Shown here piece after piece: positions 54,638 to 56,092 of a stretch of 64,000 bases of DNA. The position numbers were made by a program, and so were the translations under genes. Every line of letters begins with the position of its first letter. Position 1 is the stretch's first letter. Location of the stretch: NCBI RefSeq assembly GCF_003019035.1, contig NZ_CP027447.1; one strand, 5' to 3'. The notes beneath the pieces are model-generated. The model did not search any database and was not told the origin of the DNA. It saw only the letters and a list, made by a program, of their open reading frames with translations. Origin of the DNA: Escherichia coli. GTDB lineage: Bacteria > Pseudomonadota > Gammaproteobacteria > Enterobacterales > Enterobacteriaceae.

Positions 54638-56092
54638 TTATACAAGGGGACTAGTCACAACAGGACTATTCTCAACGGGCTCATCCTCAGAGGAACTATC
54701 ATCAAAGTCATCATCCATAGATGAAATACCATCGAATGGTGCCACGCCCGTGATCATTTTTATTTTTTTATTACGATCAGATAAGACTCCATTTAAACCG
54801 TTTTCGCTCACAGGCTTTAATGATTTTTCATAACTCTCATTGTTAGCAGGCGTATTAAAAATACACGGAGTATCAACATCAAACAATGACGTCCCCCAAT
54901 TCACATATTTAATATCATAGTTACTGAAGTTCTGTCCAGAAAAGAAGCATCCCTTAAAGTCCAATCCACCTAAATTGTATAAACCACCCTCTTCTTTTGG
55001 GAGAGTAATTTTAATTCTGGCTATCTCCCAGACAAAATTGCCATTTTTGTATTTGAATACCGTTTCAAGATCTCCTCCAGACAGCTTGACTTCTGGAAAT
55101 AATTTGAAATTAAACCCTACATTATTATGTGTCAACGTAGATGAACAAAAGATGGAAAAAGCTTGCAGTGCTGAATTATAGCTATCGATTTTATCTTGAG
55201 GCTGCGCTCTTGGTAAAAACTTATAGCAACACTCATAAAAATTAAGTAGAAACTCTGATGACCTTCCATTTTTATCAAATAATACCCGCTGAAAATGCTG
55301 CACAAACTTATTCGTTTTTTCTTGAATATCTACGGTGTGTTCCTTTGACTCTGACAAAGATGGAGCCTGTTGAAGTGCATTGCTCATCTGGTTAATGAAC
55401 ATGTGCATTTCTTTAAATTTATCTCCATAGTGACCTTTAACTTGCTGCGAGTTTTTAGCTACAGGTGAAATCTTATCTATTTGGTTGTCATATAAATTAT
55501 GTGATTCCATACAGTCATTTGGCGGCGTTTCTGAAATAACACTACGTGTTCTACCTGGCTGAAGTGAAGCAACATGAAAATCACTTTTTATTATATTATC
55601 GAAAAGGGCCTGTTCATTTCTTTTAGCGGATTGAACATACTGATCAATATTATTTTCTCTCGATAATTTGTTATTTTCAGAAAACACATTTTCTTTAATC
55701 TCCGGTTTTAATTTAATGAGAAGATCTTCCCACTCCTACTTGCTTAAACATACTACGTCAGGCTCACCATCAGTAACTAACTCTTCATTATTATCAAAGT
55801 GTACGTTGAATACTTTTAAGTTATTTTCATCAACATCATATTTAATACGTTTTAATTGTTCTCCAGCTCCCATAATGACAAAGGCGTTGCCTTCTTGATA
55901 TATACATTCAGACATTATTTTTTGTAAAGTTTCAAGAGCACCGCGATACATCCCTGAGGCAGCTTCCTTACAAATTAAATTTATAATACTATAAGCTAGT
56001 AGCTCCATGGGGTTGGAAGAATTGTTTTCATTACAACTTCCACTACCCAAAACTGTATTAACGTTATGACCATTACTTTTACTAACTAACAT
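54638..56092 (-). pseudogene. Hypothetical gene split by an in-frame amber codon (ypjB/ypjC-like), two ORF fragments of 118 and 349 aa
   Basis: ORFs 55736-56092 and 54638-55687 are on the same strand and in the same reading frame (both coordinates are congruent mod 3), separated by one TAG and 16 sense codons. Confidence 0.55.

What the first reader, a model, noticed from the sequence alone, without database searches (positions are those of the whole stretch)
54638..56092. Gene of about 480 codons interrupted by a single in-frame amber codon
ORFs 55736-56092 and 54638-55687 are co-directional and in the same reading frame, separated by one TAG and 16 sense codons. This is the signature of a recent nonsense mutation in a ypjB/ypjC-like gene rather than two genes. 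The C-terminal part is acidic and Ser-rich with no recognisable domain. The locus sits between an invertase remnant and tRNA-Ile, suggesting a decaying older island.
Basis: seen in the sequence. Interest (0 to 1): 0.35.

Follow-up and report, generated by a model that had tools for sequence, protein, structure and literature searches.

The report
Amber-inactivated E. coli ypjCB pseudogene
This is the E. coli gene ypjCB, of unknown function, switched off by a single C-to-T change that made a stop codon; public annotation already records it as a pseudogene, and the same gene is broken in other ways in many other strains, so the finding is correct but ordinary.

Summary
On the minus strand, 56092-54638 is one 485-codon frame with a single internal stop. 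That stop is TAG at 55738-55736 (codon 119), followed by 16 sense codons and then the GTG of the 349-codon ORF.

The window is E. coli chromosome. It is 100% identical here to strain SCU-301, where RefSeq already annotates "ypjCB, YpjCB family protein, pseudogene, internal stop".

Intact single ORFs of exactly 484 codons exist in other E. coli. The closest intact alleles (98.3% identical) carry CAG (Gln) at codon 119, so the lesion is a CAG>TAG transition.

It is not a sequencing error and not private to this strain. The exact 61-mer around the TAG occurs in 56 of 5,426 complete genomes.

The gene has been broken repeatedly:
- K-12 carries a different amber at its codon 161, the origin of the "ypjC"/"ypjB" split (at least 1,236 genomes).
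- Another lineage has a 1-nt deletion (63 genomes).

ypjCB is low in G+C (35%), found only in E. coli and Shigella, and only weakly constrained (dN/dS 0.5-0.85). It has no detectable homologue or known fold, so its function remains unknown.

The parts
54638..56092 (-). ypjCB pseudogene: 485-codon frame (including the terminal TAA) with one internal amber codon
   Evidence: It is 100% identical to the RefSeq feature 'ypjCB, pseudo, internal stop' of E. coli SCU-301. NCBIfam NF050179 and Pfam DUF5507+DUF5508 match.
55736..55738 (-). Premature stop TAG at codon 119, derived from CAG (Gln) by a C>T transition at CDS nucleotide 355
   Evidence: Alignment of 16 alleles. CAG is found in the nearest intact alleles L011 and L012, in K-12 and in O157. 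TAG is found in L001, L009, L010, L013, L014 and L015. The exact 61-mer occurs in 56 of 5,426 genomes.
55739..56092 (-). N-terminal fragment that would be translated (118 aa, the first three quarters of DUF5507). ATG at 56092-56090, preceded by GAGG 8 nt upstream
   Evidence: DUF5507 positions 1-118 of 160.
55688..55735 (-). 16 sense codons between the TAG and the first in-frame start codon; coding sequence in intact alleles
   Evidence: aligned with QEWENLLIKLKPEIKEN of intact proteins.
54638..55687 (-). Downstream 349-codon ORF carrying DUF5508 and the acidic Ser-rich tail. It is probably untranslated or poorly translated: the GTG start has only a GGAG 12 nt upstream
   Evidence: The judgement about the start site is an inference from the sequence.
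54041..54307 (-). Resolvase/invertase remnant (the pinH position in K-12), downstream neighbour
   Evidence: Pfam PF00239 E 6.6e-9, partial. RefSeq: 'recombinase family protein, incomplete'.
56849..56924 (-). tRNA with CAT anticodon (ileY-type tRNA-Ile), upstream neighbour and island landmark
   Evidence: RefSeq annotates it as tRNA-Ile. [quoted passage not shown]

Best explanation
The locus is the E. coli gene ypjCB, inactivated by one nonsense mutation (CAG to TAG at codon 119 of 484).

Shown:
- It is one ancestral ORF.
- The stop is derived from CAG.
- The stop is real and is shared by a small set of strains.
- Other E. coli lineages carry independent inactivating lesions in the same gene.

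Inferred:
- If the locus is transcribed, ribosomes stop at the TAG and release a 118-residue N-terminal fragment.
- The downstream 349 codons, which carry the better-conserved DUF5508 part, are translated little or not at all, because the only nearby start is a GTG with a poorly spaced Shine-Dalgarno sequence. The function is therefore lost.

The intact protein is a low-G+C, fast-evolving orphan found only in E. coli and Shigella. It sits in an island next to ileY, and its biochemical function could not be assigned.
For: - Single frame with one stop; the other five frames have 18-82 stops.
- Identical sequence annotated as a pseudogene with an internal stop in RefSeq.
- Full-length family model NF050179: an intact allele scores 966 bits over model positions 1-465, while the two window halves cover 1-118 and 137-465.
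- Intact alleles of the same length.
- CAG at codon 119 in the nearest intact alleles.
- 56 genomes carry the exact TAG 61-mer.
- Independent lesions: K-12 TAG at its codon 161 in at least 1,236 genomes; a 1-nt deletion at nt 473 in 63 genomes; a second stop at codon 387 in L013.
- It is a real coding gene under weak constraint. With substitutions placed at random at the observed divergence, only 1.4% of simulated sequences stay open, and they show 81 +/- 4.4 amino-acid changes against 67 observed. dN/dS is 0.5-0.85.
Against: - Nothing contradicts the pseudogene reading.
- No expression or protein data exist for this strain, so low-level readthrough or re-initiation at the GTG (55687) cannot be excluded.
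- In K-12 a deletion of the ypjC fragment was reported to change biofilm colonisation (PMC3646849). Split versions may therefore keep some activity, or the deletion may act on neighbouring genes.
Confidence: 0.93

Rival explanations
1. There are two genuine, separately expressed genes (one ypjC-like and one ypjB-like), not a broken one.
For: - K-12 was long annotated this way, and Pfam still holds the two halves as separate families, DUF5507 and DUF5508.
- The K-12 ypjC deletion had a phenotype.
- Split alleles are common.
Against: - The split point differs between lineages: codon 119 here, codon 161 in K-12, and a frameshift at nt 473 elsewhere.
- The nearest relatives have an uninterrupted ORF.
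- The 16 intervening codons align with coding sequence of intact proteins.
- The second ORF starts at a GTG with GGAG 12 nt upstream, and the first in-frame ATG lies about 58 codons further on.
Confidence: 0.04
2. The TAG is read through (a suppressor tRNA or programmed readthrough), so a full-length protein is still made.
For: The gene has only one lesion and no secondary decay. K-12's independent lesion is also an amber codon.
Against: - The TAG is not conserved: the closest alleles have CAG.
- Only three tRNA/tmRNA genes lie in the window and none is a suppressor.
- Wild E. coli normally lacks amber suppressors, and a G after UAG is not a known leaky context (general knowledge, not tested here).
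- L013 has acquired a second stop downstream, as expected if the reading frame is no longer used.
Confidence: 0.02
3. It is an assembly or sequencing error at a single base.
For: None specific.
Against: The identical 61-mer occurs in 56 independently sequenced complete genomes. The three genomes at least 99.7% identical over the gene all carry it, including one that is 100% identical.
Confidence: 0.01

Closest known systems
E. coli K-12 ypjC (b2650) / ypjB (b2649) pair, now merged as ypjCB (NCBIfam NF050179 'Ecoli_YpjCB'; Pfam DUF5507 + DUF5508)
   Same: - Same locus and gene order: ypjA, resolvase remnant, ypjCB, ileY, ygaQ-like.
- Same family: each window half matches its own part of the model, positions 1-118 and 137-465 of 465.
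- Also a pseudogene caused by one in-frame amber codon at a position where other alleles have Gln.
   Different: - The K-12 stop is at its codon 161, not 119.
- The K-12 allele is only about 90% identical in DNA.
- The K-12 allele lacks a 35-codon block and has a longer C-terminal end.
Intact YpjCB alleles, e.g. WP_000961363.1 (strain MS 21-1) and WP_001571800.1 (SCU-172)
   Same: 98.3-98.4% DNA identity, same length (484 codons) and same neighbours.
   Different: They have CAG at codon 119. They also differ by a cluster of changes at nt 606-760 that looks like a recombination tract.

Membership tests
YpjCB family (NCBIfam NF050179, Ecoli_YpjCB) | Full-length match to the 465-position model above the curated cut-off of 650 bits | tested here: met
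   The intact allele L005 scores 966 bits over positions 1-465. The window's two halves score 239.8 bits (positions 1-118) and 659.9 bits (positions 137-465), together covering the model apart from the stretch around the stop.
YpjCB family (NCBIfam NF050179, Ecoli_YpjCB) | Pfam architecture of DUF5507 (N-terminal) followed by DUF5508 (C-terminal) in one reading frame | tested here: met
   DUF5507 E 4.5e-65 on ORF 1; DUF5508 E 6.2e-145 on ORF 2. Both are in the same frame.
YpjCB family (NCBIfam NF050179, Ecoli_YpjCB) | Conserved chromosomal position between the ypjA autotransporter / resolvase remnant and ileY | tested here: met
   The same order is seen in 14 of the 16 fetched E. coli loci. 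In the other two (L004, L007) an IS element lies where ileY would be.
Pseudogene (unitary, by nonsense mutation) | An intact orthologue exists at the same locus in close relatives, and the stop is derived | tested here: met
   L011 and L012 are intact with CAG at codon 119. The TAG is confined to a subset of alleles.
Pseudogene (unitary, by nonsense mutation) | Loss of the full-length product in the cell | not testable with these tools
   Needs proteomics or a western blot in this strain.
Pentapeptide-repeat proteins (considered because of GLDFKGCFFSGQNFSNYDIKYVNWGTSLFDVD) | Match to a Pfam pentapeptide model or a predicted right-handed quadrilateral beta-helix | tested here: not met
   No Pfam hit other than DUF5508, even at E <= 10. 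The AlphaFold model is poorly confident in that stretch and shows no beta-helix.

The most novel reading that the evidence does not exclude
Loss of ypjCB may be favoured rather than merely tolerated. Three independent lesions (two CAG>TAG ambers and a 1-nt deletion) already account for at least 1,355 of about 3,075 complete E. coli genomes that carry the gene. Intact alleles, meanwhile, stay open despite 9-10% DNA divergence with high dN/dS. That pattern would fit a fast-evolving factor involved in host or phage interaction that is repeatedly discarded.
Probability: 0.15. Interest if true: 0.35.

Novelty: already known. Interest (0 to 1): 0.1.

Why it matters
It matters little beyond correct annotation. 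The two ORFs should be reported as one pseudogene, ypjCB, not as two genes. The wider picture is modestly useful as an example of gene decay in an AT-rich island, and as a caution that Pfam DUF5507 and DUF5508 are two pieces of one protein. That picture is an E. coli-only orphan gene that stays open in many strains yet has been broken independently at least three times, including in K-12.

Tried and rejected
- **Function by sequence.** PDB phmmer gave nothing below E 0.9 and PADLOC gave no hit. PHROGs matched only phrog_30093, of unknown function. Pfam and NCBIfam gave only DUF5507/DUF5508 and YpjCB.
- **Remote homologues.** phmmer against 1.84 billion representatives found one full-length cluster plus fragments of the same family. 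The only outside hit is marginal (E 4e-4), to an Ig-like repeat protein. I do not trust it.
- **Structure.**
  - AlphaFold2 on a 27-sequence alignment gave mean pLDDT 44. The C-terminal 221 residues alone gave pLDDT 57, showing three helices and a three-stranded sheet.
  - Foldseek against PDB gave no match with E <= 0.001 for either model. The alignments are too shallow because all sequences come from one species.
- **Pentapeptide-repeat idea.** Not supported.
- **Mobile-element origin.** No hit in phage genomes. Three of the four 'plasmid' hits are 4.8-4.9 Mb records, evidently mislabelled chromosomes, and the fourth is a partial match on a 245-kb record.
- **RNA elements.** Rfam around the locus finds only the tRNA; a weak sub-threshold hit lies on the opposite strand of the same tRNA.
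- **Promoters and terminators.** Scans gave no more sites than shuffled sequence.
- **Not run.** I did not scan genome contigs or metagenome contigs for species distribution. The cost was not justified for a finding already explained.

Full report
**Observation**

On the minus strand, ORF 56092..55736 (118 codons plus TAG) and ORF 55687..54638 (349 codons, GTG start, TAA stop) lie in the same frame. They are separated by 48 nt, which is 16 sense codons. Translating 56092-54638 gives 485 codons with one internal stop at codon 119. The other five frames of these 1,455 nt contain 18-82 stops each, and the DNA is 34.8% G+C. A frame this open is not a chance event. The ATG at 56092 is preceded by GAGG 8 nt upstream.

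**Identity of the locus**

The window is E. coli chromosome.
- A 2-kb query around the gene is 100% identical to strain SCU-301 (NZ_CP051751). It matches 3,156 of 5,426 complete E. coli genomes, mostly at 90-95% identity.
- In SCU-301, RefSeq annotates exactly this span as "ypjCB, YpjCB family protein", a pseudogene with an internal stop. It lies between tRNA-Ile and an incomplete recombinase gene followed by the autotransporter ypjA.
- The window shows the same neighbours. The resolvase fragment is at 54041-54307 (Pfam PF00239, E 6.6e-9). The AIDA/pertactin autotransporter is at 49134-53831. The CAT-anticodon tRNA is at 56849-56924.

**Family**

The first ORF matches Pfam DUF5507 (E 4.5e-65, positions 1-118 of 160). 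The second matches DUF5508 (E 6.2e-145). NCBIfam NF050179 "Ecoli_YpjCB" is a single 465-position model. An intact allele scores 966 bits over the whole model. The window's halves cover positions 1-118 and 137-465. The two Pfam families are therefore two pieces of one protein; their profile lengths (160 and 263) match the sizes of the K-12 fragments.

**One ancestral gene and a derived stop**

I fetched 16 E. coli loci.
- Uninterrupted ORFs of 484 codons occur in L005, L006, L007, L011 and L012. L004 has 476 codons and O157:H7 has 449.
- The closest intact alleles, L011 and L012, are 98.3-98.4% identical to the window.
- They read AAG CAG GAG where the window reads AAG TAG GAG. K-12 and O157 also have CAG.
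- The lesion is therefore a C>T transition at CDS nucleotide 355, changing Gln119 to amber.

**Age and spread of the stop**

The exact 61-mer centred on the TAG occurs in 56 of 5,426 complete genomes. This excludes a sequencing error and shows the mutation is not private to this strain.

The fetched carriers are L001, L009, L010, L013, L014 and L015. They differ from the window at no more than one site in the first 1,000 nt of the gene. In the 3' part L013 and L014/L015 carry dense clusters of changes, and all carriers except the identical L001 differ in one or both 1.5-kb flanks. This means the TAG haplotype is young but has been recombined into different backgrounds. The window's copy has no second lesion. 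L013 has gained a second stop at codon 387.

**Recurrent inactivation**

| Lesion | Example locus | Complete genomes with the exact 61-mer |
|---|---|---|
| TAG at codon 119 | window, L001 | 56 |
| TAG at K-12 codon 161 (GAA TAG AAC) | L003 (K-12 lineage) | 1,236 |
| 1-nt deletion at CDS nt 473 (CAG kept at codon 119) | L002, L016 | 63 |

- The K-12 stop is a different in-frame amber, at a position where intact proteins have Gln.
- L014 (TAG) and L016 (frameshift) are otherwise nearly the same allele, differing at four sites. Two different lesions therefore arose on one recent background.
- These three lesions alone account for at least 1,355 of about 3,075 genomes that carry the gene (one search gives the number of carriers).

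**Is ypjCB a real gene?**

Yes, but it is weakly constrained.
- Two intact alleles (L011 and L006) differ at 115 sites. When the same number of transitions and transversions is placed at random, only 1.4% of simulated sequences keep an open frame. The simulations also change 81 +/- 4.4 amino acids, against 67 observed; 0.13% of simulations were as low.
- Nei-Gojobori dN/dS between alleles is 0.5-0.85. It is lowest (0.2-0.6) in residues 251-415.

**Distribution**

- Every one of the best 120 protein-database hits that carries a source name is from E. coli or Shigella.
- A search of 1.84 billion cluster representatives found one full-length cluster and many fragments of the same family. There was no credible distant relative.
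- There is no copy in phage genomes. Three of the four "plasmid" hits are 4.8-4.9 Mb records, evidently mislabelled chromosomes, and the fourth is a partial match on a 245-kb record.
- The gene lies in a stretch of 34-38% G+C from about 54.5 to 59.9 kb, against 53-59% in the core genes from about 60 kb on.
- In K-12 the ypjC/ileY region is reported to bind Hha (PMC2408971). The whole island is dispensable, having been deleted in strain DGF-298.

**Function**

Function is not assigned.
- PDB sequence search, PADLOC and PHROGs gave nothing informative.
- AlphaFold2 models were poor, with pLDDT 44 for the whole protein and 57 for the C-terminal 221 residues.
- Foldseek against PDB gave no match with E <= 0.001.
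- A pentapeptide-like look to residues ~376-407 was not supported.
- The only experimental hint is that a K-12 ypjC deletion allowed more pathogen colonisation of a biofilm. Constitutive expression had no effect (PMC3646849).

**Mechanism**

The shown steps are: one ancestral ORF, a derived CAG>TAG change, a real base shared by 56 genomes, and independent lesions in other lineages.

The inferred steps are:
- Termination at codon 119 yields a 118-residue fragment.
- The downstream part is not translated efficiently. Its first start is a GTG with GGAG 12 nt upstream, and the first in-frame ATG lies about 58 codons further on.

Readthrough or re-initiation cannot be excluded without protein data. 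The non-conservation of the TAG argues against a programmed event.

**Verdict**

The feature is already annotated in public records as a ypjCB pseudogene. It is ordinary and of low interest.

Noticed in passing
window 57481-59733 (+): A 750-codon alpha-amylase-family ORF, at the ygaQ position of K-12, is intact here. The same gene is annotated as a pseudogene with an internal stop in the K-12-lineage genome and in O157:H7.
   Followed up: partly
window 56849-56924 (-): ARAGORN calls this CAT-anticodon tRNA 'Met'. RefSeq annotates the identical sequence as tRNA-Ile (ileY type), and a paper notes the same mislabelling in strain Crooks.
   Followed up: partly
L003 4788-4790 (K-12-lineage genome), equivalent to about codon 161 of ypjCB: The lesion that splits ypjC from ypjB in K-12 is also an amber codon (GAA TAG AAC). 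Its exact 61-mer is present in 1,236 of 5,426 complete E. coli genomes, far more than the window's lesion.
   Followed up: yes
L014 versus L016 (ypjCB alleles): Two nearly identical alleles, differing at four sites, carry different inactivating lesions: TAG at codon 119 versus a 1-nt deletion at nt 473. This implies independent hits on one recent background.
   Followed up: partly
window 54300-57600 and loci L001-L016: The gene and its 1.5-kb flanks are a mosaic. Differences between strains fall in dense clusters typical of recombination tracts, and allelic divergence reaches 9-10% within one species.
   Followed up: partly
window 44000-49000: A second low-G+C stretch (30-43%) lies downstream of the tmRNA gene (39760-40122) and a 410-codon ORF at 40290-41522, which I take to be the integrase. 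This is presumably a short CP4-57-like island. It was not examined.
   Followed up: no
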